This document shows, piece after piece, positions 1-43,028 of a stretch of 43,028 nt of DNA. The stretch is from a virus. A program made the position numbers and the translations under genes. Position 1 is the first letter of the stretch. Every line of letters begins with the position of its first letter. The notes beneath the pieces were generated by a model. The model ran no database searches. It was given only the letters and a program-made list of their open reading frames with translations, and had not been told where the DNA came from. The stretch lies in UHGV virus genome UHGV-1854010; one strand, written 5' to 3'.

Positions 1-3000
1 CCCGGAAAGCCGGGAGCTGATGGAAAGACCCCGTATTTACATATCGCCTATGCAAACAGTGCTGATGGAAAGACAGGATTTTCCACCACGGATGGTACAA
101 ATAAGCTCTATATCGGGCAGTATACAGATTATACACAGGCAGATAGTACAGATGCTACGAAGTATACATGGACAAAAATAAAAGGCGAACAGGGGGAACG
201 TGGGCTACAAGGATTGCAAGGAGAAAAAGGAGAACAGGGGATTCCTGGAACAGCTGGTGCGAATGGAAAGACCAGTTATTTCCACATCAAGTATTCTTCT
301 GTGGCAAAGCCGACAACGTTCAGTCAGATGACAGAGACGCCGTCTGCTTATATTGGAACTTATGTGGACTTTGTACAGGAAGATTCTACAGATCCTGCAA
401 GATATACCTGGTCGCAGTTTAAAGGATCGCAAGGCGTAAAAGGAGATCAGGGAATTGCTGGTAAGAATGGTGCAGATGGGAAAACAAGTTATTTACATAT
501 CGCCTATGCAAACAGTGCTGATGGAAAGACAGGGTTTGATGTTTCGAACAGCACTGGGAAGTTTTATATTGGACAGTATACAGATTTTACGCAAGAGGAT
601 TCTACAGACCCGACGAAATACGCATGGACAAAAATAAAAGGCGAACAGGGGGAACAAGGTCCGCAGGGAGTTCCCGGTCTGCAAGGAGTGCAAGGTCCCA
701 AAGGTGAACAAGGGATACAGGGTCCCAAAGGAGATACTGGAGCTGCAGGTGTAAACTACTGGAGATCATCAGCAACGATAGACTTATCTGATACTAAAAC
801 TTACGATGTAAATAAATGGTATCCCGTTGTGGGGAGTCAGCTTCCAACGAGTGTTTATAATCGTATTTTGGTTAATGTGTCTTTAAATAGTGGAACAAAA
901 CCATCCTGGAGTACACATGTTAGCGGATTCTCGGTGAATTTAGATCTGGCTTCCATTGGATCTGGGTGGGGAACTACTTCTGGCGAATGTATTATTTATG
1001 CAGACACGTATTCATTCTGTTCAGTGTCGCCTGCCAGCTATACACAACTGACTTATGGATCAATCCCTGTATTATATTTAAGAGGTGGCGGTAAATATTT
1101 TGTAAAGACTGATTTTGTGGTCAACTGGACGCCTAAGCCAACAGGATATACATGGCAGAATGGAAATTATAAGCAGACAGCACCTGTCTTAGATAGCAGA
1201 CCTGTACCAAGCGGAACCAATATTAAAGGGAAGAGCACCTATTTTCACATCAAGTATTCCGCAGTATCGAATCCAACCACCTCTAACCAGATGACAGAGA
1301 TACCTAACACATATATTGGTACTTACGTAGACTTCACACGGGAAGATAGCACGGATCCAAAGAAATATACCTGGTCACGTTTCCAAGGAGCCCAGGGTCC
1401 CCAGGGAACGCAGGGAATTCCGGGAACAAACGGCACAAACGGCAAGACAAGTTATCTGCACATTAAATATTCCAATGATGGAGGAAAAACGTTTACCGGA
1501 AACAGCGGAGAAGATGTGGGAACGCATATCGGTACTTGTGTGGATTACAATCAGTCCGATCCTGCAAGTGTTGGATCTTATAAGTGGGCGAAGATTAAAG
1601 GAGAACAAGGTGCTACAGGACCACAAGGAGCAACGGGACCACAAGGGCCGGCGGGGACATCAGGAAGAGGGATAAAAACCATTACAGAATATTATTTGAT
1701 TTCTTCCGCAAAAACAGGAATTACAACAGCGTCAAGCGGTTGGAGTACATCAGTTCCGACGATGACAGCAACAAATAAATACTTGTGGAACTATGAAAAA
1801 TTTACGTTTACAGATAATACCACAGCGACCACTACGCCAAAAATAATCGGGATATACGGAGACAAAGGAACAACAGGAGCTACTGGTCCGCAAGGACCTC
1901 AAGGAAATGCAGGTGCAACAGGTCCCCAGGGGCCACAAGGAGCGACAGGCCCGAAAGGACCGCAAGGGGCAACTGGCGCAACGGGGCCGCAAGGAGCAAC
2001 TGGAAACGGAATAAAGTCTATCACGAATTATTATCTTGCAACGGCAAGCGGAAGCGGTGTGTCGGCGTCCACATCAGGATGGACTACAACTGTACAAGCA
2101 ATAACGGCGTCAAAAAAATATCTGTGGAATTATGAAGTTGTTACCTATACAAATGGCAGCACGTATCAATCAGCACCATGTATCATCGGAGCATATGGTG
2201 ATAAGGGAGCGACCGGTGCTACAGGAGCAACAGGACCAAGTGGCATAATTGTATCTTCTACGGCTCCATCAAATCCTAAAGTTGGCCAGTTATGGCAAAC
2301 GGCATCCGGTCAGCCGATCAAGCGGTGGGATGGAAGTAGGTGGGTGATCCATTATATCGCAGTCGAGAATCTGGACGTGCAAACGCTCAGTGCGATCGTT
2401 GCCAACCTTGGAACTGTAACAGCCGGACTTATTAAGAGTAAGGGTGGACACTTTTACATAAATGTAGACACCGGAGAGATCGTGTCTAAAAGCAGTGACG
2501 GTACAATTTCCGTTTTTGTAAAAAAAGAGAATATTGACATGGTAAGATCGTTTACAGCGGCTAGGTACTGGGGGAGTCGATTAAACTACTCTGGATTAGA
2601 ATTTTATTCCGGCGGCAGTAGCATGGCAGATGATATCGCGAATGGATCTATGGTATGCTCTATTCGCGGAGATGAGGAGATGCGTGACTTTTCGGTGACA
2701 AACATAAATGGAGATAGCATATGGCTTATTAGGACAATTAAGCAGCTTACAAAATCTATCTCTTACGATTCCGGTACCGTGAAAGGTCCATATACAAGTG
2801 CAAACTCGGCAAATAACATCCGTGTGGAATTAAAAAGAAGAGGATGTCTGGTTGCATGCAAAATCACAATGCTTTCCCAGTTTCCAAGCAGCGGAAGACA
2901 CGGGGCATTCGATGAAGTGAGAATCCCAGACGGGTATCGCCCGGTGTTTGATGTTTATGCGCCGTATATCGAAGTGTCCGGATCGTCAGTGTTTGGCGCT

Positions 3001-3102
3001 GGACGGTATATAATTGGCAGTGATGGGGGAATTACAATTTTCGTTGAGAACCCGAATTGGACAGAGCGACTTTTGTCGATCACTTGGGTTACGGACGACT
3101 AA
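1..3102 (+). CDS. Tail fibre / tail-associated (Tal) protein, C-terminal 1034 codons; 5' partial in this window and continuous in-frame with 41262..43028. Collagen-like Gly-X-Y tracts are interleaved with repeated modules
   Basis: Frame 1 is open from nt 1 with no start codon. There are multiple (GXY)n tracts ([38 protein letters not shown] and others). A ~60-aa module (K-T-S-Y-[LF]-H-I-[AK]-Y ... Y-I-G-[QT]-Y-[TV]-D-F-T-[QR]-E-D-S-T-D-P-x-K-Y-[AT]-W) occurs at least 5 times, and a ~120-aa module (IK[TS]IT[EN]YYL ... KYLWNYE ... YGDKG) twice. The same module is found at the window end. Confidence 0.8.
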
Positions 3103-6411: not shown

Positions 6412-7917
6412 TTATTCATCGTCACTATCATCCTCAATCTCGAAATCAGAAGTGTATAGAGAATCACTTGATTGAGATTGACGGAATTCTTCTGCTATCA
6501 TGGTTTTATTAAATTCTGCTGTGGGTTCGATTTCTGTTACTAAGTTCTCTAATTCATCAATAGTCGTGTAGAAGAATTCTTTTCTCATATTAACTTTATT
6601 TACACGTTTTTCATTTAAAATATTATGTAACTTGCTTTCAAGTCCAACTGCATCATTTGAGAAGATAAAGCTATGCACATCAAACTTAAATGGTACAGAA
6701 GCGTCCCCGAGTTCATTCACCCTATCTTGTGGATTTAACCTTCTTGTCATACCTATCTTAAATACATTTTCACCAAAAGAACCAAGGTTGCTAATGATAT
6801 ATACATTCCCAGCTTTTCCGTTTGCAAGGTTTGAAATTTCTTCTTTTTTAACTACAACTTCGGAGAGTTGTGTTTGGAGTTCTAGTATACGTGCATTTAA
6901 TTTATCCAGTTCATCCATTTTTGCATTGGACATCTGCTCTCTAAGTTTTTCAATTTCTGCCTGATATTTGGTTTCTTCTTTTTCTATTTTTTTACGTTCC
7001 GATTCAAGTGCTTTTCGTTCTTCAGCTTCTTGACGCATTTGTTCCCTAAGGGCTAATTGTTCTTGCCGTGCCTGCTCTTTTTTCACGTAATAATTGTATT
7101 CAATTTTTACGGCGTTAATAAATAGATACTCTATTTCACCGATGAATTTAGTAAGGGTTCCTGCTATACTTTGGTTCCCATCACCGGCAATCTTTAGATA
7201 TTTCTGAGTGACAGTTTTAACATCATCTATAGATTTATCCAATTTCTCAAATTTTAAATTGTATAAAATATTTTGCAATTCTGCTCTTAATGCTATTACC
7301 ATGAGCTTGTAAATAGCCTGATTCGCCTTTGTCGTATAGCGAGCAGCATACTTTTCTAAAACGGAGTTAATTTGTTTATCGTTCAGTCTATAAGCTTTAC
7401 GTAAATCCTTAACATCCATACAGTGCAATTTTAGAATAACAGATGGGCTTATCTCTTCTAATTCTTCTAAGTCATAATTTTGTAGTTTTATATCATTCTG
7501 CTCAGGAGAATAGTTAAAAAAGTTCTCAAAAGTATAGTTTATAGCCTTCACCAACTCTTTAGAACGATTAAGTTTATTGGTTTGAGTTTTTATATTCTTG
7601 AGTATTTTAGCTTCATCTGTACGCAGCTCAGTTAAATGCTCTAAAACTTCTTGACTTTTATCGGTTCTTTCAATAATCAGCCTGTCTAAATCAGCTTGTT
7701 TTTGAACATATTTGTCCTCCAGTTGTTTTTCTTTTACCTCATAATTGCTTTTCAGTGAATTCGTCTTAGCTTTGATTTCGTAGTATTCATAAGCCCCCAT
7801 TTCTTGTAGCTTACTTTGCGCTTCTGATAATTCAGATTGCATTTGCTGTTTTTCTTGTTGCAAATGCACTATTTCATCTTTAAATCTTTTGATTCTAAAA
7901 ATATCAGTAAATCCCAT
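6412..7917 (-). CDS. DUF4041 (long coiled-coil) + C-terminal T5orf172/MUG113 (GIY-YIG-like) domain protein; lysogeny-module cargo and candidate defence or superinfection-exclusion gene
   Basis: The C-terminus GNVYIISNLGSFGENVFKIGMTRRLNPQDRVNELGDASVPFKFDVHSFIFSNDAVGLESKLH...RKEFF matches the T5orf172 signature. The N-terminal ~380 aa is heptad-rich coiled coil (DUF4041 architecture). Strong RBS aagagggaaaATG. The gene lies between integrase and ImmA/repressor. Confidence 0.8.
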   Translation of the reverse strand: MGFTDIFRIKRFKDEIVHLQQEKQQMQSELSEAQSKLQEMGAYEYYEIKAKTNSLKSNYEVKEKQLEDKYVQKQADLDRLIIERTDKSQEVLEHLTELRTDEAKILKNIKTQTNKLNRSKELVKAINYTFENFFNYSPEQNDIKLQNYDLEELEEISPSVILKLHCMDVKDLRKAYRLNDKQINSVLEKYAARYTTKANQAIYKLMVIALRAELQNILYNLKFEKLDKSIDDVKTVTQKYLKIAGDGNQSIAGTLTKFIGEIEYLFINAVKIEYNYYVKKEQARQEQLALREQMRQEAEERKALESERKKIEKEETKYQAEIEKLREQMSNAKMDELDKLNARILELQTQLSEVVVKKEEISNLANGKAGNVYIISNLGSFGENVFKIGMTRRLNPQDRVNELGDASVPFKFDVHSFIFSNDAVGLESKLHNILNEKRVNKVNMRKEFFYTTIDELENLVTEIEPTAEFNKTMIAEEFRQSQSSDSLYTSDFEIEDDSDDE

Positions 7918-9416: not shown

Positions 9417-10085
9417 ATGACAGAACTCGTATATTTAAAAAATGATGAAGCAGTGTGTGACAGCTTACAGGTGGCGGAGAAGTTTGGAAAGAGACACAGC
9501 AATGTAGTAAGGACAATTGAAACTCTGTTAGGGGGTATGCTCAAAATTGAGGAGACCCAAAAAATGTTTTGGAAGTCGCATTACGTTGAAAAACAGAATG
9601 GACAACGCTATCCAAAGTATATTATGAACCGAGATGGTTTCTCTCTCTTAGTAATGGGTTTCACTGGTAAGAAAGCTCTTGAATGGAAATTGCAGTACAT
9701 CAAAGCATTTAATCAGATGGAAGCACTCATCAAAGAAAAGACAACTCAGACATGGGTAGAAACAAGAAAAGCCGGAAAACTGACCAGAAGAGCAGAGACA
9801 GACACCATTCAGAAGTTAGTGGGATATGCAAAGGGCCAGGGGAGTACACACGCAGAGATGCTTTACATGACCTATTCAAAACTTGCAAATAAGATGGCTG
9901 GAATTGGAAAACGTGATGAAGCAACAGTTATGCAGCTGAACAATCTTTCGTTGATGGAAAACATCATTCTCCATGTGATCGACACTGGAATACTGACTGG
10001 AAAGCATTACAAGGAGATTTATCAGGATTGTAAGAAGAGACTGGAAACCGTGAAGGATCTGGCTTACCTAGAATCTGTTGCGTAG
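9417..10085 (+). CDS. Rha-family phage regulatory protein / antirepressor
   Basis: The N-terminus LVYLKNDEAVCDSLQVAEKFGKRHSNVVRTIETLL matches the Phage_pRha domain. Confidence 0.8.
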   Translation: MTELVYLKNDEAVCDSLQVAEKFGKRHSNVVRTIETLLGGMLKIEETQKMFWKSHYVEKQNGQRYPKYIMNRDGFSLLVMGFTGKKALEWKLQYIKAFNQMEALIKEKTTQTWVETRKAGKLTRRAETDTIQKLVGYAKGQGSTHAEMLYMTYSKLANKMAGIGKRDEATVMQLNNLSLMENIILHVIDTGILTGKHYKEIYQDCKKRLETVKDLAYLESVA

Positions 10086-21858: not shown

Positions 21859-21968
21859 TTGGAGGTGCGAATATGAAATTTGATTATGAGGAAAAAGTAA
21901 CTTATTTACACTGTATTGAAGTAGATACAGAAGAAAGAGCTGACAGGAGAGGAAATTGAGGTGATGGA

Positions 21969-22163
21969 ATGAAGAAAATAATGATAACTATATTGCGCAA
22001 AAATGGAGAATGCAGAACTTGGACAAATGCAAGTGCGGAAGAACACTTAGCAATGGGTCTTACAGCTTACGCGGAAGGTGTAAAAAGATGTGCGGAATCA
22101 TGGGAAAAAGAAACGGAAGAAGTGGAAAGAGTGGTGAAAGAAGCGCTGGAAAGCGAGAGATAA
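21969..22163 (+). CDS. Small hypothetical phage protein
   Basis: RBS gaggaaattgaggtgATGgaATG. Confidence 0.35.
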   Translation: MKKIMITILRKNGECRTWTNASAEEHLAMGLTAYAEGVKRCAESWEKETEEVERVVKEALESER

Positions 22164-23057: not shown

Positions 23058-23651
23058 ATGAAAAAATTTAATTGGAATGAATTTAAAAATAAAGACAATA
23101 AGATTGCAGTGCACTGCAAGACAGAAGAGGAAGCGAAAGACTTTTGCGAAAGAATGCATAAGCAAGGAATGAAGTGGTGTTCAGGCGAAAGCTACCTGAA
23201 AGAGACAAATTACGAATTCTGCGAAGAAGAAATATGTTATATCAAAGGAGAGTTTTCGCCGTATCAGTACTATAAAAGCAATGGGTATGAAATCTTAGAA
23301 TGGAGTGATTACATGCAGAAAGAATTTACAAAGGCGGATTTAAAAGACGGAATGGTGGTCGAATATAATGATAACTATTTCAGGAAAAGACTTGTTATAG
23401 GCGGCTTTTTGACTGGCGAAGATGGATATGCGGATTTGGGAGACTATAACGAAAACTTAAAAAGTGTGGTAAGCGATTTGGAAATAGTTAGAGTATATAA
23501 GATTAAATGCATGGGAAAAATTAGCAGTATCATGGAAGACCACAATCTTGAACTCATCTGGGAGCGCAAAGAACCAAAGAAAATGACTGTGGAAGAAATG
23601 CGACAGAAGCTTGAAGAGCTGACAGGAAAAGAGATTGAGGTAACGGAATGA
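23058..23651 (+). CDS. Hypothetical phage protein
   Basis: ORF of 197 aa; the ATG follows an AG-rich stretch. Confidence 0.45.
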   Translation: MKKFNWNEFKNKDNKIAVHCKTEEEAKDFCERMHKQGMKWCSGESYLKETNYEFCEEEICYIKGEFSPYQYYKSNGYEILEWSDYMQKEFTKADLKDGMVVEYNDNYFRKRLVIGGFLTGEDGYADLGDYNENLKSVVSDLEIVRVYKIKCMGKISSIMEDHNLELIWERKEPKKMTVEEMRQKLEELTGKEIEVTE

Positions 23652-23896
23652 ACAGGGAAACCATGAGACGCAGGAAGGAGACGGCAGGAGTCATCCGAAA
23701 GATAGATGCACATGATATGGCAACGAGAAAGCCCTGTGAGACCGCTTTAAAGCAACAGGAGCATGAAGCCTTTAAGTGCGACTTTAAAAGCCGTGAGATG
23801 GCGAATAAGGACGCTGTGGAGTACATAGCAGAGAAATACAACATAAAAGATCCTGTTCCGGGAGGTGATAGAGTTGGACAAGAACGTGATTTATGA
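23648..23896 (+). CDS. Hypothetical small basic protein
   Basis: ATGA overlap with the preceding gene. Confidence 0.35.
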   Translation: MNRETMRRRKETAGVIRKIDAHDMATRKPCETALKQQEHEAFKCDFKSREMANKDAVEYIAEKYNIKDPVPGGDRVGQERDL

Positions 23897-24475: not shown

Positions 24476-24665
24476 TTTGTGATGTAAGATGCAGGCTGCA
24501 CAGCTGAGGTCTGTTCTGGGAGTGCACACCGGACTTACATTGCAATGGTACCAAAACGCAGATATCCGCAGATCTGCAAAACAAACAAATAGATTCAGCA
24601 ATCTATATTTTGTGTCAGTGCCCGAGTGCGGATAGGGTAAAGGATGTCAATAAAAGGCATCCTAC

Positions 24666-24738
24666 GGGTGTATAGCTCAGTTGGGAGAGCGATCGGCTGT
24701 TAACCGATGTGTCGCAGGTTCGAATCCTGCTATACCCG
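24666..24738 (+). tRNA. tRNA-Asn (anticodon GTT), phage-encoded, no encoded CCA
   Basis: Manual cloverleaf. Acceptor stem GGGTGTA/TATACCC (one G.U pair), D arm GCTC-AGTTGGGA-GAGC, anticodon arm ATCGG-CTGTTAA-CCGAT, variable loop GTGTC, T arm GCAGG-TTCGAAT-CCTGC, discriminator G. Confidence 0.85.
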
Positions 24739-24945
24739 TTGTGGACTACTGCAAGTTCCCCTTTTCTTATAAATTTTGATTGTGTACTTGGTTATTTTGG
24801 TTTTTGTTGGCGTTTGTAATTTTCATAGCAGTAATCCTAAATTCTTAGCATCCAGTTGATGGGTACTTTTGCTTGAAAGAGAATAGGGGGCATTGTAAAA
24901 TATATGCGTGGTAATTGTTAGGCGCAGGATGAGGAGGAAAAACGC

Positions 24946-32806: not shown

Positions 32807-33730
32807 GTGAAGATGAAGAATAAAGAATTTATGATGTTACAATTATTTGCGACAGGAGACAACAATGATATGCCGGTAAGAAGCTACCAGCTTGAGTTTA
32901 AAAGCCTTTTGGAGGTAGTATTTAAAAAGATGTCTTATTTCGCGGATTTTTTCGTCGGCGAACTTGAGGTACTGGATGGAGTCAGAGAAAATGAAACAGC
33001 CTTTTATGTAAAAACATCAGACATTCCGGTTGTGGTTGGAACTGGGTACGATAAAACAGCTACGAAAGCGTTTGGAACGGGAACAGGGAACTCTAGCCGT
33101 TTCGGGGAGAGAAAAGAGATTATCTACGCGAACACGCCGGTTAATTACTCTTGGGGATGGAATTACCACGAGGGAATTGACCGACACACGGTAAACAATG
33201 ATTTTGACGTTGCGGTAGCAGATCGCTTGGAACTGCAGGCGAGGGCTAAGACAAAGCAGTTTAACAAGCAGCACGGAAAATTTATTTCCACATCTGCCGG
33301 AAAAACTTTAAGTGTTACTGATTATACAGAAGACAATGTATTAAAGCTGTTTAATGAGCTGTCTAAGTATTTTAACAACATCGAAGCAGTTGGAACGAAA
33401 AAAATTAAGGTTTGCTCCGATCTGTACAATGCCGTTTCGGATCATCCTTTGAATACAACTGCTAAAAACTCTACTGTAAACATTGATGGCAATGAAGTTG
33501 TGAAGTTCAAGGGATTCCTTGTAGAGGAGATTCCGGATGAATTATTTCAGTCTAAAGAATGCGCCTATGCATATATTGCCGGAGTTGCAAAAGCATTTAC
33601 TGGAATTAACACAGCGAGAACGATTGAATCGGAAGACTTTGACGGAGTAGCTCTGCAGGGAGCTGGTAAGGCTGGAGAATTTATTCCGAATGACAACAAG
33701 AAAGCTGTAGTTAAAGTGTCGGTGGGGTAG
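32807..33730 (+). CDS. Major capsid protein with an N-terminal L27-like leader MLQLFA|TGD
   Basis: RBS ggagaatgtgaagATG. 307 aa. Sits between scaffold and connector genes. Confidence 0.65.
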   Translation: MKMKNKEFMMLQLFATGDNNDMPVRSYQLEFKSLLEVVFKKMSYFADFFVGELEVLDGVRENETAFYVKTSDIPVVVGTGYDKTATKAFGTGTGNSSRFGERKEIIYANTPVNYSWGWNYHEGIDRHTVNNDFDVAVADRLELQARAKTKQFNKQHGKFISTSAGKTLSVTDYTEDNVLKLFNELSKYFNNIEAVGTKKIKVCSDLYNAVSDHPLNTTAKNSTVNIDGNEVVKFKGFLVEEIPDELFQSKECAYAYIAGVAKAFTGINTARTIESEDFDGVALQGAGKAGEFIPNDNKKAVVKVSVG

Positions 33731-33732
33731 TA

Positions 33733-33765
33733 CCCACTGACAATACCGCCTTGATTGGCAGTGGG
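33733..33765 (+). promoter_or_regulatory. Conserved RNA hairpin CCCACTG-acaATACCGCCTTGATTgg-CAGTGGG immediately after the capsid gene stop
   Basis: Paired with the near-identical element at 36107..36139. Loops are 15/19 identical, and the stems differ by a compensatory A-T to T-A swap. Confidence 0.5.
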
Positions 33766-33820
33766 AAGATCGGAAAGGCAAAAGTAGGAAAAGCGAAATA
33801 ATATAACGGAGGTAGTAGAT

Positions 33821-34204
33821 ATGGCGTATTCTAAAAAAGATTGGGTAGATGGAGAGACAATCACGGAAGCATCAATGGATAACATCGAGAATGGTGTAGC
33901 TGCAAATGACACGAAAAATACACAGCAGGACGGAAAGATCACTGAATTAGAAGGGAAAATAGTGAAAGCAGTTGCTGGATCTAAAGATGGTTTGATGTCT
34001 AAGGAAGATAAAGCGAAACTGGACGGAATTGCAGAACAGGCGAATAAATACAATCTTCCTGCGGCGAACAAAACAACGCTGGGTGGTGTGAAACAGATGG
34101 CTTTGATCGCAGATTTGTCGACAGAAACAGCGACTGACCTGAAAAACAAAATCAATGCGATTCTTGCGGAGATGAAAAAACAGGGGATTATGGCGAATTC
34201 GTAA
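33821..34204 (+). CDS. Hypothetical structural protein (possible capsid decoration/accessory)
   Basis: RBS ggaggtagtagatATG; located between the capsid and head-tail connector genes. Confidence 0.4.
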   Translation: MAYSKKDWVDGETITEASMDNIENGVAANDTKNTQQDGKITELEGKIVKAVAGSKDGLMSKEDKAKLDGIAEQANKYNLPAANKTTLGGVKQMALIADLSTETATDLKNKINAILAEMKKQGIMANS

Positions 34205-34218
34205 GGAGTTGAAATTGA

Positions 34219-34545
34219 ATGTTGGATGATTTAAAAATTCTTCTGGGAATTGATGTTTCCGATAGGGATTCCGATGAAAAGCTTTTACTGATTCTGGAAT
34301 CTGTGCGAAATCGTTTGAAACTGCTTCTTGGTGGCATGGAAGTGCCATCGAGTATGCAGCATATCGTTACGGATGTGGCAGTGATCAGGTTTAACCGCAT
34401 TGGCTCAGAGGGCATGTCCTCACATAGCGTGGCTGGAGAAAGTACTACGTACAATGAAAATGATTTTTCCGCCTATATGGACGAGATACAAGCGTATCTT
34501 GACTCTGTAGACGGGGTAAAACGTGGGAGGGTGCGATTCCTATGA
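34219..34545 (+). CDS. Head-tail connector protein (gp6-like, Phage_connect_1)
   Basis: The N-terminus LDDLKILLGIDVSDRDSDEKLLLILESV is typical of gp6-like connectors. Confidence 0.6.
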   Translation: MLDDLKILLGIDVSDRDSDEKLLLILESVRNRLKLLLGGMEVPSSMQHIVTDVAVIRFNRIGSEGMSSHSVAGESTTYNENDFSAYMDEIQAYLDSVDGVKRGRVRFL

Positions 34546-34856
34546 GATATGATAAAGCTGTATATTTTCAGGCGGTAGAACATGGAGCGTATAATCCAGA
34601 TACTGGTGATTACGCAGATGACCACGTGACAGAAGTGAAGAAGTACGGAAGCGTTTCAGATACCGGAACAGAAACGATGAACCTGATTTATGGCAGCATT
34701 AAACAAGGAAGTCTTACAATTCAATTGCAGACTCATTATACAGAAACATTCCACAGGATCCGTGTTGGAAGGAAAGTATACAGAGTGGATTTTGAACGAA
34801 AACTGCGAACAAAGCATGTGTTTGTAGTAAGTGAGGTGCAAAGTGGCAGAAATTAA
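34542..34856 (+). CDS. Head-tail adaptor / head closure protein (SPP1 gp16-like)
   Basis: About 100 aa, in the conserved position and order; ATGA overlap with its neighbour. Confidence 0.5.
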   Translation: MRYDKAVYFQAVEHGAYNPDTGDYADDHVTEVKKYGSVSDTGTETMNLIYGSIKQGSLTIQLQTHYTETFHRIRVGRKVYRVDFERKLRTKHVFVVSEVQSGRN

Positions 34857-35178
34857 ATTTGAGGGAATTGCAAAGCTGAATAAAGGCTTGAAAAAGAGAA
34901 TGGATATGAGCGCAGTGAAGACTGTTGTAAAAAGGAACGGCTCTGATATGCAAAGAGAAGCGCAGAGGAACGCACCGGTTGACACTGGAACACTGAAAAG
35001 AAGTATCGGTATTGACATCTCTGATGGTGGGATGACCGCCACTGTCGAACCAACAGCTGAGTATGCGCCTTATGTAGAACTCGGAACTCGCTTTATGGAA
35101 GCCCAACCCTATTTAAAACCCGCATTTGAGGAGCAAAAGAAACAGTTTGAAAAAGATTTGCAAAAGCTTGTGAGGTGA
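34843..35178 (+). CDS. HK97 gp10-family neck protein
   Basis: NAPVDTGTLKRSI...EYAPYVELGTRFMEAQPYLKPAFE matches the gp10 family signature. GTG start after GAGG. Confidence 0.65.
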   Translation: MAEIKFEGIAKLNKGLKKRMDMSAVKTVVKRNGSDMQREAQRNAPVDTGTLKRSIGIDISDGGMTATVEPTAEYAPYVELGTRFMEAQPYLKPAFEEQKKQFEKDLQKLVR

Positions 35179-35181
35179 GAT

Positions 35182-35565
35182 ATGGATCCACAGCAAGAAT
35201 TATTTACAAAATTACTTACAGAGATCAAAGCATTAGGATATGACGTATATGACGGCTTCTTACCGCCGGATGGTACGCCGTATCCTTTTGTTTATCTTGC
35301 AGATAGCCAACAGACAGACGATGCCAATAAAACGGCTGTGTTTGGCAATGTGTATCAGACCATTCATGTCTGGCACAACAATCCAAGACAGAGAGGAACG
35401 GTATCAAAAATGCTGTTGGCGATCAAAACCACATGCAGAAAACTGGATCATACCGAAAATTTTGCATGGGATGTCCGGAATGTAAATCAGAGAATTCTTC
35501 CGGATACAACAACAAAGCACCCTCTTTTACACGGGTTGCTGGAAATAGAATTTAGTTTTAGTTAG
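35182..35565 (+). CDS. Tail terminator / tail completion protein (putative)
   Basis: About 127 aa, located between the gp10-like gene and the major tail protein. Confidence 0.45.
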   Translation: MDPQQELFTKLLTEIKALGYDVYDGFLPPDGTPYPFVYLADSQQTDDANKTAVFGNVYQTIHVWHNNPRQRGTVSKMLLAIKTTCRKLDHTENFAWDVRNVNQRILPDTTTKHPLLHGLLEIEFSFS

Positions 35566-35579
35566 AGAGGAGAAAAAGC

Positions 35580-36104
35580 ATGTTTAAGACAGGACTACAG
35601 TTATTTGCAGAGGCGGTACCTGGCAAGAAAATCGTCTATTTGTATCGACTTGCAGGAAAAGCCAAAGAAGGGGCTGCGAAAAATCTTGCATTCACAACAG
35701 AAAATGGAAGAACAAAAAGCAAGGACGCAGATTCCACTGCCACAAAGGACGGAGCCATCCGTACACCCGGGGCTGCGGAAACAGAAATCACGGCCACTGC
35801 TATCCTTGCGAAGAAAGATAAGTTAATCTCTGAGTTAGAGGACGCAATGGATTCGGATGAGTTGCTTGAAATCTGGGAAGCAAACCTTGAGGATCCGGCA
35901 GAACCTGGTCCGAATAAGTTTAAGGGCATGTATTTCCAGGGATATCTCACGGAATTTGAGATCACATCCTCGGCAGATGAAAATGTAGAGGTGTCTCTTA
36001 CTTTTGGTGTTAACGGCTCCGGAAAACGAGGGGATGTTACTGTAACTGCACAGCAGCAGGAAGTAGCAGCTTATGTGTTTAAGGATACGACACAGGAATC
36101 GTAA
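35580..36104 (+). CDS. Major tail (tube) protein, phi13/TP901-1-like, with an N-terminal L27-like leader GLQLFA|EAV
   Basis: RBS gagaggagaaaaagcATG. 174 aa, placed upstream of chaperones and TMP. Thr/Ala-rich, like phi13-family tail proteins. Confidence 0.7.
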   Translation: MFKTGLQLFAEAVPGKKIVYLYRLAGKAKEGAAKNLAFTTENGRTKSKDADSTATKDGAIRTPGAAETEITATAILAKKDKLISELEDAMDSDELLEIWEANLEDPAEPGPNKFKGMYFQGYLTEFEITSSADENVEVSLTFGVNGSGKRGDVTVTAQQQEVAAYVFKDTTQES

Positions 36105-36106
36105 CC

Positions 36107-36139
36107 CCCTCTGGTGATACTGCCTTGATTAGCAGAGGG
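36107..36139 (+). promoter_or_regulatory. Conserved RNA hairpin CCCTCTG-gtgATACTGCCTTGATTag-CAGAGGG immediately after the major tail gene stop (paralog of 33733..33765)
   Basis: See the paired element at 33733..33765; the stems covary (CCCACTG/CAGTGGG versus CCCTCTG/CAGAGGG). Confidence 0.5.
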
Positions 36140-36203
36140 AGAATTTGTAAGGCGAAAAACGGATGATTATGTACATAGGGGGCGGTAAAACCGCTCTCTT
36201 TTA

Positions 36204-36629
36204 ATGGAGGTAAAAAATATGATGGAATTAACAATTAACGGACAGGTGTACCAGTTTAAATTCGGAATGGGATTTTTGAGAGAAATCAACAAGCAGACAA
36301 ATATGCCTGTGGATGGATTGCCGGGAGTAAAAAAAGACGTAGGATTCCGGTATGCGCTTATGAACTTAATAAATGGTGATCCGGATGCGTTGGTAAACAT
36401 TCTTGATGTTGCGAATAAAGGGCAGAATCCGAGAGCGACAAGAGGCCTTTTGGATGAGTATATCGACGATGAGGACACAGATATTGATGAACTTACAGAA
36501 ACAGTAATGGGTTTCTTGAAGAGTGCCAATGCTACGAAAAAAGCTACGGACGAGATCGTGGACGCTGTGGAGAAAGAGAAACAGAGAATGGAAGAGGAAG
36601 AAGCGAAGAAGAGAGAGTTGATGATGTAG
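36204..36629 (+). CDS. Tail assembly chaperone (gpG-like)
   Basis: Acidic protein of about 140 aa immediately upstream of TMP; RBS ggaggtaaaaaatATG. Confidence 0.65.
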   Translation: MEVKNMMELTINGQVYQFKFGMGFLREINKQTNMPVDGLPGVKKDVGFRYALMNLINGDPDALVNILDVANKGQNPRATRGLLDEYIDDEDTDIDELTETVMGFLKSANATKKATDEIVDAVEKEKQRMEEEEAKKRELMM

Positions 36630-36652
36630 ATTTTGAAGAATCCTACAGAGAG

Positions 36653-36967
36653 GTGGCGTTGAATTGTTTCCGACATCTTGGCTTTAAGAGCTTTGAAGAA
36701 GTGGATAGGTTGACAATTCCAGAATACACCCTGCTCATGGAGGCTGTGCAGCTAAGAGAAGTAGATAAGGACTATCGAAATCATCTGCAAGCGTTCCTGA
36801 ATTTTGCTGTGAAAGCAGAGAAAAAGGTCGGAAAGAATAAGACTAAACCAGTTTATCAGAGATTCAGAAAGTTTTTTGATTACGAAAAAGAAGTAGATCG
36901 TGTGAGGAACCGAAAGCAAAAAAATGAAAGATTGGACATAATCGGCAGAATGATGAAAGGAGAGTGA
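36653..36967 (+). CDS. Tail assembly chaperone -1-frame extension (gpT-like); probably expressed as a G-T fusion by -1 frameshift near GAAAAAAG 36536..36543
   Basis: This reading frame is the -1 frame relative to 36204..36629 and is open from 36491. The upstream ORF contains an A6 run in ACG-AAA-AAA-GCT. The listed ORF starts at GTG with no good RBS. Confidence 0.5.
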   Translation: MALNCFRHLGFKSFEEVDRLTIPEYTLLMEAVQLREVDKDYRNHLQAFLNFAVKAEKKVGKNKTKPVYQRFRKFFDYEKEVDRVRNRKQKNERLDIIGRMMKGE

Positions 36968-41262: not shown

Positions 41263-43028
41263 TGGACAGTATTAGAATTGCGATTCTGAGCGCAAATAAC
41301 ACACCAGTAGCATTTATGGACAACGCACACAAAAAGTCTATGCACTACTGGAAAGACGAATTGCACGAATACTTACAGGGTGCGGCCAATACTTACACCT
41401 TTACGGTGTCCGCAAAGCATCAGGATGCAGAGAATGTTACCGCCGGGAATAAGGTGGCGTTTATACACAAAGGGAAATCCTACTATCTAAACATCGTAAA
41501 CACTGAGCAGACAGAAGAGACGATCACAGCTACGGCGTGGTCGTTATCTTTTGAGCTAATCAACGAGGATGCAGGGGAATACAAGGCAGGACAGGCGATG
41601 AGCTTTGAAGAGTACCTTGCCATATTTGACGCGGAAAGAACACTGAAATTGGGGCTTAACGAGGTATCAGATAAGCGGATCACCAATGAGTGGACAGGCA
41701 CAACGTCTGTATTAAAGAGGCTGTTTTCCTTGGCGAACATATTTTCTGCGGAGATCGAATTTGAGACAGTCTTAAACAAGGACTACTCCTTAAAAGAGAT
41801 CGTCCTGAATGTCTATCGAGAACACTCCGGAGCGGACAGCGGAATCGGAGAATACCGGAATGACATCGTACTGAGGTACGGAAAAGGAATTACCGGAATT
41901 CGAAAAACCACAGATGCCGAGAAGCTTTACACCTGTATCCAGCCTACCGGTAAGGACGGGCTGACGATTAATGGACTGGATAAGAAAGAGTACGATGAGA
42001 ACGGCAATATCGTGTACTTTACAGACGGTGCGATCATCCGGGCACCACAGGCGAGAGACAGGTTTCCATCCAACATCGTAAATAAAGAGGATGCTTATAT
42101 CCTAATGCGGAAAGAGTACGATACAGACAGCAAGGACAAGCTCTATAGCATGGCTCTGTCTGATCTTAAAACAGCATCCGAACCAGTAGTGACCTACGAG
42201 GTGGATGGATATTTTGACACCAACATCGGAGACACTGTAAGGATGCAAGATCAGGAGTGGACACCAGTACTTTATCTACAGGCGAGAGTGTCCGAACAGG
42301 TGCGCAGTCTTACCAATCCAAAAACAGCAAAGACGGTATTTACAAACTACAAAGAGCTTACATCCGAAATTTCGGACAGCTTATTACAGAGGATGCAAGA
42401 CCTTATTAATAAAAATAAGGTTTATACTTGCTCTATCTCAACAAACAACGGCATTATCTTTAAAAATGGCATCGGTAGCACTACTCTGACAGCTTACGCT
42501 TACGATAACGGCGTGGATGTGGCAGACAAGCTACAATTCCGATGGAGCAAGGATGGACATGAGTTTTATGTTGGTAAGAGCGTTACGGTAAATGCTGCTG
42601 ACGTGGATACAAAGGCGGTGTACTCATTTGAGGCTCTAGAAAATGGGATAAAACGTGGGTATTACGAAGTCACAATCACGGATGTAATGGATGGAGAGGA
42701 TGGAAAAGACGGGGAACAGGGTCCTCAGGGCGAGAAAGGAGAGCAAGGCGAACAGGGACCTCCTGGTCCACAAGGCGCTCCGGGATTGGATGGTATACAG
42801 GGTCCAAAAGGGGATCAAGGAATCCCGGGAAAAGACGGAGTTGACGGAAAAACACAGTACACTCACATTTCTTATGCAAACAGTGCAGACGGGTCTAAAG
42901 ATTTTTCTGTATCCGACAGCAATCGGGATTATGTCGGAATGTACGTTGATTTTACGCAAAATGACAGCACAGACCCGAAAAAATACGCGTGGAGTAAGAT
43001 CAAAGGTGCGGACGGAGCAAACGGAACA
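41262..43028 (+). CDS. Tail-associated protein Tal / minor structural protein N-terminal portion (Prophage_tail domain), running into collagen-like repeats; 3' partial, continues in-frame at window position 1
   Basis: The N-terminal domain (IRIAILSANNTPVAFMD...YTFTVSAKHQ) is typical of siphovirus 'phage minor structural protein, N-terminal region'. From 42690 the protein becomes Gly-X-Y repeats plus the YTHISYANSADG...[21 protein letters not shown] module. No stop codon precedes the window end. Confidence 0.8.
   Translation, partial: MDSIRIAILSANNTPVAFMDNAHKKSMHYWKDELHEYLQGAANTYTFTVSAKHQDAENVTAGNKVAFIHKGKSYYLNIVNTEQTEETITATAWSLSFELINEDAGEYKAGQAMSFEEYLAIFDAERTLKLGLNEVSDKRITNEWTGTTSVLKRLFSLANIFSAEIEFETVLNKDYSLKEIVLNVYREHSGADSGIGEYRNDIVLRYGKGITGIRKTTDAEKLYTCIQPTGKDGLTINGLDKKEYDENGNIVYFTDGAIIRAPQARDRFPSNIVNKEDAYILMRKEYDTDSKDKLYSMALSDLKTASEPVVTYEVDGYFDTNIGDTVRMQDQEWTPVLYLQARVSEQVRSLTNPKTAKTVFTNYKELTSEISDSLLQRMQDLINKNKVYTCSISTNNGIIFKNGIGSTTLTAYAYDNGVDVADKLQFRWSKDGHEFYVGKSVTVNAADVDTKAVYSFEALENGIKRGYYEVTITDVMDGEDGKDGEQGPQGEKGEQGEQGPPGPQGAPGLDGIQGPKGDQGIPGKDGVDGKTQYTHISYANSADGSKDFSVSDSNRDYVGMYVDFTQNDSTDPKKYAWSKIKGADGANGT

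What the first reader, a model, noticed from the sequence alone, without database searches (positions are those of the whole stretch)
33733..36139. Two covarying hairpins with a conserved 19-nt loop placed immediately 3' of the capsid and tail-tube genes
Element 1 at 33733..33765 is CCCACTG-ACAATACCGCCTTGATTGG-CAGTGGG. Element 2 at 36107..36139 is CCCTCTG-GTGATACTGCCTTGATTAG-CAGAGGG. Each starts within 3 nt of the stop codon of the two most abundant virion proteins. The 7-bp stems differ by a compensatory A:T to T:A swap, which is covariation evidence for RNA structure. The loops share ATACYGCCTTGATTRG (15/19 identical) and can form an inner 4-bp stem presenting ACYGCCTTG. Neither element has a U-tract, so they are not simple terminators. 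The conserved loop suggests a sequence-specific role. Candidates are a partial attenuator setting capsid/tube to minor-protein stoichiometry, a 3' stabiliser or RNase processing site, or a binding site for a phage RNA-binding protein.
Basis: seen in the sequence. Interest (0 to 1): 0.6.

Follow-up and report, generated by a model that had tools for sequence, protein, structure and literature searches.

The report
Frameshift cassettes extending capsid and tail proteins
The two hairpins are real, but they are most likely the stimulatory part of a portable ribosomal-frameshift signal that adds a short lysine-rich tail to some copies of the capsid and tail-tube proteins of human-gut phages, a signal that current annotations of these phages do not mention.

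Summary
Observation confirmed. Both 33-nt hairpins are at the stated coordinates, each exactly 2 nt after the stop codon of the capsid (phrog_840) or tail-tube (phrog_238) gene. In 28 distinct relatives, 95% of stem cells pair, and one pair shows all four Watson-Crick combinations.

The interpretation needs changing. The "conserved loop" is coding sequence. The -1 frame is open through hairpin and tail in all 57 distinct standard-length copies, apart from four with an earlier stop. It evolves as protein (pN/pS 0.38, against 0.83 and 1.06 in the other frames). It has no start codon in 77 of 91 contexts. It encodes P-[STPA]-x-D-x-A-L-[IV]-G-x-G-K-x-G-K-A-K-V-G-K-x-K*.

Conservation begins exactly at a slippery heptamer, GGGGGAA (a curated -1 slip site in actinophages) or GGTGGGG (window capsid). 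The order is heptamer, stop, 2 nt, hairpin.

The cassette sits on at least four capsid families and two tube families, including cultured Ruminococcus gnavus phages. One capsid family reaches the same tail through A_AAA_AAG.

Best reading: a portable -1 programmed frameshift cassette, a new variant of a known kind (phages A2, PSA, T7, SPP1). The window's tube copy lacks a canonical heptamer and may be weak or decaying. There is no protein-level evidence yet.

The parts
32807..33730 (+). Major capsid protein gene (0 frame), ending ...GTG GGG TAG
   Evidence: ORF. phrog_840 major head protein, E = 2e-116.
33721..33727 (+). Putative slippery heptamer G_GTG_GGG. tRNA-Gly can re-pair GGG to GGG in the -1 frame. 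The 0-frame stop TAG (33728-33730) follows directly.
   Evidence: Sequence. GGTGGGG+TAR occurs once in the window, 0.07 expected. The same heptamer+stop precedes the cassette in 12 of 91 distinct contexts, on three capsid families. Column conservation rises from 0.47 to 0.83 exactly at the heptamer.
33733..33765 (+). Hairpin 1: 7 bp, 1x1 internal loop, 4 bp, 9-nt loop. It lies 5 nt 3' of the heptamer and is the presumed frameshift stimulator.
   Evidence: -12.8 kcal/mol, z = -3.1; covariation.
33727..33801 (+). -1 frame extension: 24 codons VVPTDNTALIGSGKIGKAKVGKAK, then TAA at 33799-33801.
   Evidence: Reading. Conserved -1 ORF in relatives. Coding signature. No start codon in 77 of 91 contexts.
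33748..33779 (+). Possible pseudoknot stem 2: loop GCCUU (33748-33752) with AAGGC (33775-33779), 9 nt 3' of the hairpin.
   Evidence: Both pentamers are invariant in 57 distinct copies, including the synonymous third positions of GCC and AAG. The pairing appears in an MFE fold. With no variation there is no covariation test. This part is inference.
33821..34204 (+). Head fibre gene, linked to the capsid cassette as one insertion module.
   Evidence: PF11133 Phage_head_fibr, E = 4e-18. Every capsid-associated cassette is followed by a MAY...-type fibre gene. Relatives whose capsid lacks the cassette run straight into the MLDDLK connector gene, which is window 34219-34545.
35580..36104 (+). Tail tube (major tail) protein gene, ending CAG GAA TCG TAA.
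   Evidence: ORF. phrog_238, E = 5e-52.
36093..36104 (+). Non-canonical junction CAG_GAA_TCG_TAA. The only re-pairing available is tRNA-Glu GAA to GGA (36095-36097), 8 nt before the hairpin.
   Evidence: Sequence. This junction occurs in 11 of 91 contexts. The contig behind L041 and L123 has one extra A (GGAAATCG), which puts the extension in frame with the tube gene.
36107..36139 (+). Hairpin 2, with the same architecture as hairpin 1.
   Evidence: -15.4 kcal/mol, z = -3.8. Within this subtype the closing pair runs G:C to G:U to A:U.
36098..36166 (+). -1 frame extension: 22 codons IVTPSGDTALISRGRICKAKNG, then TGA at 36164-36166.
   Evidence: Reading. The coding signal within this subtype alone is weak (pN/pS 0.64 against 0.72 and 0.95).
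36177..36203 (+). Separate terminator-like hairpin (AGGGGGCGG-UAAAA-CCGCUCUCU) followed by UUUUAA, between the tube cassette and the tail-assembly chaperone gene.
   Evidence: -14.7 kcal/mol, z = -3.5. Conserved in relatives, and analogous hairpins with a U-tract follow the tube gene in distant relatives that lack the cassette. The simple scan did not flag it.

Best explanation
Each element is the 3' stimulatory hairpin of a portable -1 programmed ribosomal frameshift cassette. The cassette has five parts in order:
1. A slippery heptamer that forms the last two sense codons of the structural gene. It is G_GGG_GAA in most relatives and G_GUG_GGG at the window's capsid gene.
2. The 0-frame stop codon.
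3. Two further nucleotides, so the hairpin starts 5 nt after the heptamer.
4. An interrupted 11-bp hairpin, possibly closed into an H-type pseudoknot by GCCUU:AAGGC.
5. About 12 further codons.

Most ribosomes terminate and make the normal capsid or tube protein. A fraction pause at the hairpin, slip back one base, read through the hairpin in the -1 frame and add a 22-26-residue Lys-rich tail. The consensus is P-S/T-D-D-x-A-L-I/V-G-R/S-G-K-V/I-G-K-A-K-V-G-K-A-K.

The virion would then carry a sub-stoichiometric set of head and tail subunits with the same cationic C-terminal peptide. By analogy with T7 gp10B and the C-terminal domains of lambda gpV and SPP1 gp17.1*, that peptide should be surface-exposed.

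Shown here: the hairpin with its covariation, the conserved open -1 frame and its coding signature, the lack of a start codon, the heptamer at the cassette's left edge, and the spread across unrelated capsid and tube genes.

Inferred: that ribosomes actually shift, the efficiency, the pseudoknot, and what the tail does.

The window's tube copy has only a G_GAA re-pairing site, so it may shift poorly or be a decaying copy.
For: (1) Architecture. In 91 distinct contexts the hairpin always starts 2 nt after the stop aligned with the cassette. The 7 nt before that stop are GGGGGAA in 62 contexts, GGTGGGG in 12 and GGAATCG in 11. Conservation starts at the heptamer: 0.47 upstream, 0.83 within it.

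(2) GGGGGAA is the -1 slip heptamer in about a thousand curated SEA-PHAGES frameshifts, with tRNA-Glu re-pairing on GGA through a G:U pair (PMC10885494). It is also proposed, with a pseudoknot, in corynephage phi16 (PMC5506516).

(3) Coding. The -1 frame has no stop within the hairpin in any of 57 distinct copies. Four copies, of the window's tube type, stop early in the tail. Both other frames have a stop in all 57. Entropy runs codon position 3 > 1 > 2. pN/pS is 0.38 against 0.83 and 1.06, and 0.32 in the unstructured tail alone. Gly codons use GGA, GGC, GGT and GGG.

(4) 77 of 91 contexts have no ATG, GTG or TTG in the -1 frame upstream of the conserved peptide.

(5) Hairpin covariation: pair 4:30 is UA 16, GC 5, AU 3, CG 3.

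(6) Independent routes to the same tail. A phrog_267 capsid family reaches it through A_AAA_AAG-GCC-TAG without the hairpin. One contig has the tube extension in frame...FKDTVQEIVDPSSDNALISRGEIGKAKIGKR*.

(7) The same heptamer-stop-NN-hairpin module precedes a 120-190-aa -1 ORF on other capsids. That ORF lacks a start codon when the stop is TAA or TAG. It folds as a beta-sandwich with pLDDT 90.

(8) Precedent. Phage A2 uses -1 shifts on both head and tail genes, and PSA, A118, A500, T3 and T7 also recode structural genes (PMC5009743). SPP1 gp17.1* is described in PMC8718954.
Against: There is no protein, Ribo-seq or reporter evidence.

The window's tube junction (CAG_GAA_TCG_TAA) is not a recognised heptamer, and within that subtype the coding signal does not separate the frames.

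G_GUG_GGG allows good re-pairing for only one of the two tRNAs. Its fit to PRFect's 'twoonefour' class is by name only; I did not see that paper's Figure S1.

The in-frame variant comes from a single metagenomic contig and differs by one A in a short run, so an assembly error is possible. A protein-database search found no other fused forms.

The distinct sequences are related, so the shuffle statistics overstate independence.

The hairpins are modest (-13 to -15 kcal/mol).
Confidence: 0.72

Rival explanations
1. RNA-only element. The hairpin would act as a partial transcription attenuator, a 3' mRNA stabiliser or processing site, or a protein-binding site, raising capsid and tube expression relative to downstream genes.
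For: The hairpin is real and under selection. It follows the two most abundant virion genes. It persists, with compensatory changes, in the tube subtype that lacks a good slip site and in the in-frame variant. A stabilising role could coexist with frameshifting.
Against: There is no U-tract, and a separate U-tract hairpin exists after the tube cassette. An RNA-only role does not explain the fixed 2-nt offset from the stop, the heptamer at the cassette edge, the universally open -1 frame, or the pN/pS of 0.32 in the unstructured tail. GGA motifs are not conserved while the Gly codons are. There is no Rfam match.
Confidence: 0.1
2. Relic C-terminus. The Lys-rich tail was once encoded in frame, and 1-nt indels truncated the genes. 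On this view the downstream similarity is undecayed remnant and nothing is recoded.
For: An in-frame version exists. The window's tube subtype has a diverged tail (RICKAKNG, KKSKAKADKQ) and a weak coding signal. Rare copies carry further indels (items 8 and 37).
Against: The same out-of-frame arrangement (-1 frame, stop immediately after a slippery heptamer, 2-nt offset) recurs on six non-homologous gene families with no in-frame counterpart. It shows continued purifying selection and 0 of 57 stops within the hairpin in the -1 frame. A 3-nt deletion (GGGGGAA to GGTGGGG types) and a GAA-to-TAA change (L015) both preserve the frame.
Confidence: 0.1
3. Independent micro-ORF. A separate 22-26-aa Lys-rich peptide, or the 124-aa protein in the sister family, would be made by re-initiation coupled to termination of the capsid or tube gene.
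For: Some junctions create an in-frame ATG (GAA TAA TG to ATA ATG; GAA TGA to ATG A), with the G-run as a possible Shine-Dalgarno sequence. Gene callers annotate the 124-aa ORF this way.
Against: 77 of 91 contexts have no ATG, GTG or TTG before the conserved peptide. The peptide is conserved from the first codon after the slip site. In TAA/TAG variants of the 124-aa family, callers must invent upstream starts inside the capsid gene's -1 frame (P0036, P0095, P0101, P0106).
Confidence: 0.05

Closest known systems
Lactobacillus casei phage A2, gp5A/gp5B (major head) and gp10A/gp10B (major tail)
   Same: -1 ribosomal frameshifts in decoding both the major head gene and a tail protein gene of one siphophage, each giving a normal and a C-terminally extended virion protein (review PMC5009743).
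   Different: According to that review, the A2 extension is an Ig-like domain. Here the payload is a 22-26-aa Lys-rich peptide. One and the same cassette (slip site, hairpin and extension) serves both genes, and it is also found on unrelated capsid and tube families.
Listeria phages PSA, A118 and A500 (cps and tsh recoding)
   Same: Recoding of both the capsid and tail-shaft genes. In PSA the shift sits on a proline codon just 5' of a stop codon (tail shaft) or of a pseudoknot (capsid) (PMC5009743).
   Different: In PSA both shifts are +1, on proline codons (CCC_UGA for tsh). A118 and A500 use -1 for the coat gene and +1 for tsh. Here the conserved frame is -1, and the +1 frame closes within 3-4 codons.
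Phage T7 gene 10A/10B, and T3
   Same: A frameshift in the major capsid gene gives a minor, C-terminally extended coat protein. The review notes that the T7 extension is not an Ig-like domain.
   Different: Different slip site and stimulator. Capsid only, with no matching cassette on a tail gene.
Bacillus phage SPP1 gp17.1 / gp17.1*
   Same: A tail tube protein made in two forms by a frameshift at the gene's end. The extended form is a minority (3:1) and is dispensable (PMC8718954).
   Different: The SPP1 extension is a folded FN3 domain, and only the tail is affected.
G_GGG_GAA slip sites of actinobacteriophage and corynephage tail-assembly chaperone genes
   Same: The identical heptamer GGGGGAA used for -1 shifting, with tRNA-Glu re-pairing on GGA through G:U. 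In phi16 it is combined with a 3' pseudoknot (PMC10885494; PMC5506516).
   Different: Those sites lie inside chaperone (G/GT-type) genes of high-GC hosts. Here the heptamer forms the last two codons of capsid and tube genes of Lachnospiraceae phages and is followed at once by the stop codon.
Ig-like domains added to phage structural proteins by frameshifting (Fraser et al. 2006, as summarised in PMC5009743 and PMC8718954)
   Same: Accessory C-terminal decorations that move between structural genes by recombination and are sometimes expressed by frameshifting. The sister payload found here is a beta-sandwich whose best, weak matches are Ig and FN3 domains.
   Different: The window's payload is too short to fold as a domain and matches no Pfam or PDB entry.

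Membership tests
-1 programmed ribosomal frameshift signal | Slippery sequence at which the tRNA(s) can re-pair in the -1 frame | tested here: inconclusive
   Relatives: GGGGGAA in 62 of 91 contexts, a curated -1 heptamer, so the feature is met for the cassette family. Window capsid copy: G_GUG_GGG, with perfect re-pairing for tRNA-Gly only. Window tube copy: only G_GAA, not a recognised heptamer.
-1 programmed ribosomal frameshift signal | Stable 3' structure 5-9 nt after the slip site, supported by covariation | tested here: met
   The spacer is 5 nt at the capsid copy and 8 nt from GAA at the tube copy. Hairpins fold at -12.8 and -15.4 kcal/mol with z about -3 to -4. 95% of cells are paired, and 0 of 500 shuffles reach the observed covariation.
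-1 programmed ribosomal frameshift signal | -1 ORF open from the slip site, without its own start codon, evolving as protein-coding | tested here: met
   No -1 frame stop within the hairpin in 57 distinct copies; stops in the other frames in all 57. pN/pS 0.38 against 0.83 and 1.06. No start codon in 77 of 91 contexts. The signal is weak for the window's tube subtype taken alone.
-1 programmed ribosomal frameshift signal | Two protein products with a common N-terminus made from one mRNA | not testable with these tools
   Neither paper on the cultured R. gnavus phages mentions frameshifting or mass spectrometry.
H-type pseudoknot frameshift stimulator | Loop nucleotides pair with a downstream segment (stem 2) | tested here: inconclusive
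   GCCUU in the loop and AAGGC 9 nt downstream are complementary and invariant, even at synonymous sites. The pairing appears in an MFE fold. No variation exists to test covariation.
Intrinsic (Rho-independent) terminator | G+C-rich stem-loop immediately followed by a U-tract | tested here: not met
   No T-run follows either hairpin, and the terminator scan reports neither. A different hairpin at 36177-36203 does have one.
Any curated RNA family (Rfam 15) | Match to a covariance model | tested here: not met
   The only gathering-score hit is a tRNA. The E-value scan of 33650-36300 gives only chance-level hits, E >= 0.57.
Ig-like domain extensions of phage structural proteins | The extension is a folded Ig-like, FN3 or Big domain | tested here: not met
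   The window extensions are 22-24 aa with no Pfam or PDB match. The sister payload on other capsids is a beta-sandwich with only weak Ig/FN3 matches (best E = 0.015).

The most novel reading that the evidence does not exclude
Human-gut Lachnospiraceae siphophages carry a self-contained, horizontally mobile 'display cassette': slip site, stop, hairpin or pseudoknot, and payload. It can be pasted onto the 3' end of any capsid or tail-tube gene. It decorates head and tail alike with a sub-stoichiometric polycationic peptide. That peptide could mediate adhesion to anionic glycans (mucin, capsule, wall teichoic acids), or could dock the head-fibre protein whose gene always travels with the capsid copy. 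This would be a short-peptide counterpart of the Ig-like-domain mucus-adherence idea.
Probability: 0.2. Interest if true: 0.75.

Novelty: new variant of a known kind. Interest (0 to 1): 0.6.

Why it matters
If the shift occurs, common human-gut phages make unannotated isoforms of their two most abundant virion proteins. This includes the only cultured Ruminococcus gnavus phages examined here.

A related group of more than 300 'hypothetical proteins' of about 124 aa would then be frameshift extensions of capsid proteins, mis-called as separate genes.

The cassette is compact (about 80 nt), begins exactly at the slip site, and has been transferred between unrelated capsid and tube genes. It is therefore a natural example of modular recoding, and a candidate tool for partial-occupancy display on Firmicutes phages.

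It also gives gene callers and frameshift predictors a clear low-GC training case in which the 0-frame stop directly follows the heptamer.

The biological role of a shared cationic tail on head and tail is open. It can be tested in the cultured R. gnavus phages.

Tried and rejected
- tblastn of the extension peptide against INPHARED phages found nothing; the query is short and low-complexity. blastn with the 81-nt cassette did work.
- A protein-database search with the in-frame tube C-terminus found no further fused forms. All 22 hits covered at most 65% of the query.
- Rfam at gathering and at E-value thresholds gave nothing relevant.
- Pfam and PDB sequence searches with the extension peptides gave nothing. 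Pfam on the 125-aa sister payload gave nothing, and PHROGs gave one weak hit of unknown function.
- The simple terminator scan flagged neither hairpin, nor the U-tract hairpin at 36177.
- pN/pS restricted to the window's tube subtype does not discriminate between frames, so I do not claim selection on that copy's peptide.
- Stop-codon readthrough was rejected: the 0 frame hits TGA 7 codons later in both copies.
- A +1 shift was rejected: the +1 frame stops within 3-4 codons.
- T4 gene-60-style hopping was rejected: GGG-to-GGG matching would work for the capsid copy but not for the tube copy.
- A CsrA-type GGA-motif RNA was rejected: GGA is not conserved where the Gly codon is.
- L199's long -1 ORF first looked like an ordinary coupled gene with an ATGA overlap. 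Variants with TAA or TAG stops lack any start codon, which favours frameshifting there too.
Full report
**The observation**

Element 1 (33733-33765) follows the TAG of ORF 32807-33730, a major head protein (phrog_840, E = 2e-116). Element 2 (36107-36139) follows the TAA of ORF 35580-36104, a major tail protein (phrog_238, E = 5e-52). Each hairpin starts exactly 2 nt after its stop codon.

ViennaRNA folds each as 7 bp, a 1x1 internal loop, 4 bp and a 9-nt loop. The energies are -12.8 and -15.4 kcal/mol, with z = -3.1 and -3.8 against dinucleotide shuffles. Neither hairpin has a U-tract.

Two details differ from the finding. The two 19-nt 'loops' are 14/19 identical rather than 15/19. The repeat extends to 51 nt, 33733-33783 against 36107-36157, at 75% identity. 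The motif occurs only twice in the window. No Rfam family matches it.

**What the relatives show**

A capsid-based scan of IMG/VR gave 79 loci, and a close GenBank relative is MT835606. Printing the sequence after the capsid and tube stop codons in all of them showed three things:
- The element recurs after both genes in most close relatives.
- It always starts 2 nt after the stop. In one locus, L015, a GAA-to-TAA change has put an earlier stop one codon upstream, so the hairpin lies 5 nt after the first stop there.
- The -1 frame is always open from the end of the gene, through the hairpin, and for about 12 more codons.

That frame encodes a conserved peptide: P-[STPA]-[DEG]-[DN]-x-A-L-[IV]-[GS]-[RS]-G-[KR]-[VI]-G-K-A-K-[VI]-G-K-x-K*.

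In the window the -1 products would be:
- Capsid: ...VSVG|VVPTDNTALIGSGKIGKAKVGKAK* (33727-33801).
- Tube: ...TTQE|IVTPSGDTALISRGRICKAKNG* (36098-36166).

The 'conserved loop' GCCTTGATTRG is therefore the run of codons Ala-Leu-Ile-Gly/Ser.

**Coding test**

I collected every instance by peptide pattern from about 200 loci, which gave 91 distinct nucleotide contexts. On the 57 distinct standard-length copies, the -1 frame has no stop within the hairpin. Four copies, of the window's tube type, stop early in the tail. Both other frames have a stop in all 57. Column entropy runs codon position 3 (17.6) > 1 (10.2) > 2 (5.8). Pairwise pN/pS is 0.38, against 0.83 and 1.06 in the other frames. The unstructured tail alone gives 0.32, against 0.67 and 0.88. 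Gly codons use all four synonyms, and Ala, Leu, Ile and Val codons vary at third positions.

In 77 of 91 contexts the -1 frame has no ATG, GTG or TTG upstream of the conserved peptide. Independent initiation is therefore not the general route.

**Structure test**

On 28 distinct hairpins (alignment A1), 95.1% of cells form standard pairs. The same alignment gives 36-62% when the 3' partners are slid. Twenty-two cells are changed on both sides, against 4.8 in shuffles, and no shuffle out of 500 reaches the observed covariation score. Pair 4:30 occurs as U:A, G:C, A:U and C:G. Pair 7:27 occurs as G:C, G:U, A:U and U:A. The inner stem also covaries. These compensatory changes alter the encoded residues (Ser/Thr/Pro/Ala paired with Arg/Ser), so the RNA structure is selected in its own right.

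The sequences are related, so these numbers are not probabilities. Four Watson-Crick variants at one pair is nonetheless hard to obtain otherwise.

**The slip site**

The seven bases before the stop are GGGGGAA in 62 of 91 contexts. They are GGTGGGG in 12 (the window's capsid copy), GGAATCG in 11 (the window's tube copy), and rare variants of these in the rest. Column conservation jumps from 0.47 in the 18 nt upstream to 0.83 in the heptamer. The shared module therefore begins exactly at the heptamer.

The cassette is attached to capsid genes of four PHROG families (840, 422, 10, 267) and to tube genes of two (238, 88), which are otherwise unrelated in sequence.

GGGGGAA is a documented -1 slippery heptamer. 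The PRFect paper reports it in about a thousand curated actinobacteriophage frameshifts and explains the tRNA-Glu re-pairing on GGA through a G:U pair (PMC10885494). Corynephage phi16 is annotated with GGGGGAA plus an H-type pseudoknot (PMC5506516).

With a 5-nt spacer, formed by the stop codon plus 2 nt, the geometry matches the heptamer, short spacer and 3' structure layout of known -1 signals.

GGTGGGG differs from GGGGGAA by loss of the GAA codon. It still lets tRNA-Gly re-pair perfectly, 5 nt from the hairpin. In L015 the GAA has become TAA, which again leaves G_GGG as the slip site and preserves the frame.

**Independent support**

1. A phrog_267 capsid family (L194, L085) reaches the same ...VGKAKVGKAK* tail from A_AAA_AAG-GCC-TAG. 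This is the classic bacterial slip heptamer, used here without the hairpin.
2. One contig (L041 = L123) has one extra A (GGAAATCG), and its tube gene runs in frame into ...QEIVDPSSDNALISRGEIGKAKIGKR*. This is exactly the product predicted for a -1 shift at GAA in the window's tube type. It is a single contig, so an assembly error cannot be excluded, and a database search found no more fused forms.
3. In a Mediterraneibacter MAG (L199) and other contigs (L216, L218), the same GGGGGAA-stop-NN-hairpin module (9-bp stems, 19-25-nt loops) precedes a -1 ORF of 120-190 aa. That ORF has more than 300 database relatives. Where the stop is TGA an accidental ATG exists, and gene callers start there. Where the stop is TAA or TAG there is no start codon, and callers extend upstream into the capsid's -1 frame (P0036, P0095, P0101, P0106). 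The domain is predicted with high confidence as a beta-sandwich (pLDDT 90). Its best PDB matches are Ig-like and FN3 modules, but they are weak (E >= 0.015).

**Mechanism proposed**

Ribosomes reaching the last two codons of the capsid or tube gene meet the hairpin at the mRNA entrance. Most terminate at the adjacent stop. A fraction slip -1 on the G-run or GGAA, unwind the hairpin and translate it and the tail.

A pseudoknot is possible. Loop GCCUU and AAGGC, 9 nt downstream, are complementary and invariant in all 57 copies, even at the synonymous third positions of GCC and AAG, and the pairing appears in an MFE fold. With no variation it cannot be tested here.

The efficiency is unknown.

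The function of the tail is inferred only. It has a net charge of about +3 to +5. By analogy with T7 10B and the C-terminal domains of tube proteins (PMC8718954), it should be on the virion surface.

Capsid cassettes are always followed by a phi29-type head-fibre gene (PF11133). Capsids without the cassette also lack that gene. The two therefore travel as one module. Tube cassettes occur without either, so fibre docking cannot be the only role.

**The window's two copies are not equal**

The capsid copy (GGTGGGG-TAG-TA-hairpin, canonical tail) belongs to a recurrent type found on three capsid families.

The tube copy (CAG_GAA_TCG_TAA-CC-hairpin) has only the G_GAA re-pairing, 8 nt from the hairpin. 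Its tail has diverged (RICKAKNG*), and within its subtype pN/pS does not separate the frames (0.64, 0.72, 0.95). Its hairpin is still maintained through the series G:C to G:U to A:U. It may shift inefficiently, or it may be a decaying copy whose hairpin retains some other use.

A separate hairpin with a U-tract at 36177-36203 (z = -3.5) lies between it and the chaperone gene. That hairpin is the likelier transcriptional attenuator.

**Comparison with known systems**

Frameshift-made C-terminal variants of major capsid and tail proteins are established:
- Phage A2: -1 shifts on both head and tail genes.
- PSA, A118 and A500.
- T3 and T7 gene 10.
- SPP1 gp17.1*.
- Ig-like domains that move between structural genes (PMC5009743; PMC8718954).

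The present case belongs to that kind. It differs in four ways:
- One cassette is shared by the head and tail genes.
- The payload is a short cationic peptide rather than a folded domain.
- The heptamer forms the last two codons and is followed at once by the stop.
- The whole signal-plus-payload unit is demonstrably portable across unrelated genes.

The cassette is present at both the capsid and major-tail genes of six cultured R. gnavus phages. Neither of the two R. gnavus phage papers I checked mentions frameshifting. One of them describes these six phages. I found no paper describing this cassette.

The host range is Lachnospiraceae and related Clostridia. More distant capsid homologues, at 76% identity or less, lack the Lys-rich cassette.

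**Verdict**

The interpretation should shift from 'regulatory loop' to 'translated frameshift stimulator'. My confidence in the -1 frameshift reading is about 0.7 for the cassette family and the capsid copy, and lower for the tube copy. All evidence is comparative. Protein-level confirmation is the missing step and is feasible in cultured phages.

Noticed in passing
L199 4912-5307; L216 2500-3013; L218 114-548; proteins P0023-P0142: A family of more than 300 'hypothetical proteins' of about 124 aa (some 140-190 aa) lies directly after capsid genes, in the -1 frame, behind GGGGGAA-stop-NN and a 9-bp hairpin. With TAA or TAG stops it has no start codon. These are probably frameshift extensions of the capsid protein mis-called as genes. 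The predicted fold is a beta-sandwich (pLDDT 90) with weak Ig/FN3 matches. Some members carry a further C-terminal segment (...EELQAMTVKEIKAIAEARGYSI...).
   Followed up: partly
window 36177-36203: Terminator-like hairpin (9 bp including two G:U pairs, then UUUUAA) between the tube cassette and the tail-assembly chaperone gene. It is conserved in relatives, and distant relatives without the cassette also have a U-tract hairpin after the tube gene.
   Followed up: partly
window 33728-34218 (cassette plus head fibre gene 33821-34204): The capsid cassette and a phi29-type head-fibre gene (PF11133) behave as a single insertion. Relatives lacking the cassette go straight from the capsid stop to the MLDDLK connector gene. 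Window 34049-34209 is 92-93% identical to the head-fibre gene of R. gnavus phages phiRM10 and phiRg519T2, although the capsid genes are unrelated.
   Followed up: partly
L194 about 7150-7240; L085 about 9610-9720: A phrog_267 capsid gene ends GTA AAA AAA AAG GCC TAG. Its -1 frame gives KKGLDDLAKVGTAKVGKAKVGKAK*, the same Lys-rich tail reached through A_AAA_AAG. The run of nine A's could also support transcriptional slippage. No hairpin is present.
   Followed up: partly
window 36204-36629 and 36653-36967: The usual tail-assembly chaperone pair (phrog_183 and phrog_441), with the second ORF in the -1 frame. I saw no obvious canonical heptamer in the overlap 36540-36630.
   Followed up: no
window 1-3102 and 42700-43028: A very long tail-fibre-like ORF with collagen-like Gly-X-Y repeats and repeated about 80-nt modules runs off both ends of the window. 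This suggests a circularly permuted complete phage genome of about 43 kb.
   Followed up: no
window 24665-24739: A phage-encoded tRNA-Asn (GTT).
   Followed up: no
window 21935-21973 and 23614-23652: A 39-nt direct repeat (87% identical) ending ...GGAATGAA, apparently at two gene junctions. It remains unexplained.
   Followed up: no
L174 and L090 (items 8 and 37): Rare cassette copies with a 3-nt loss in the G-run and a 1-nt loss in the 3' arm (caggggaagatt), which break the -1 frame. These are either decaying copies or homopolymer assembly errors.
   Followed up: no
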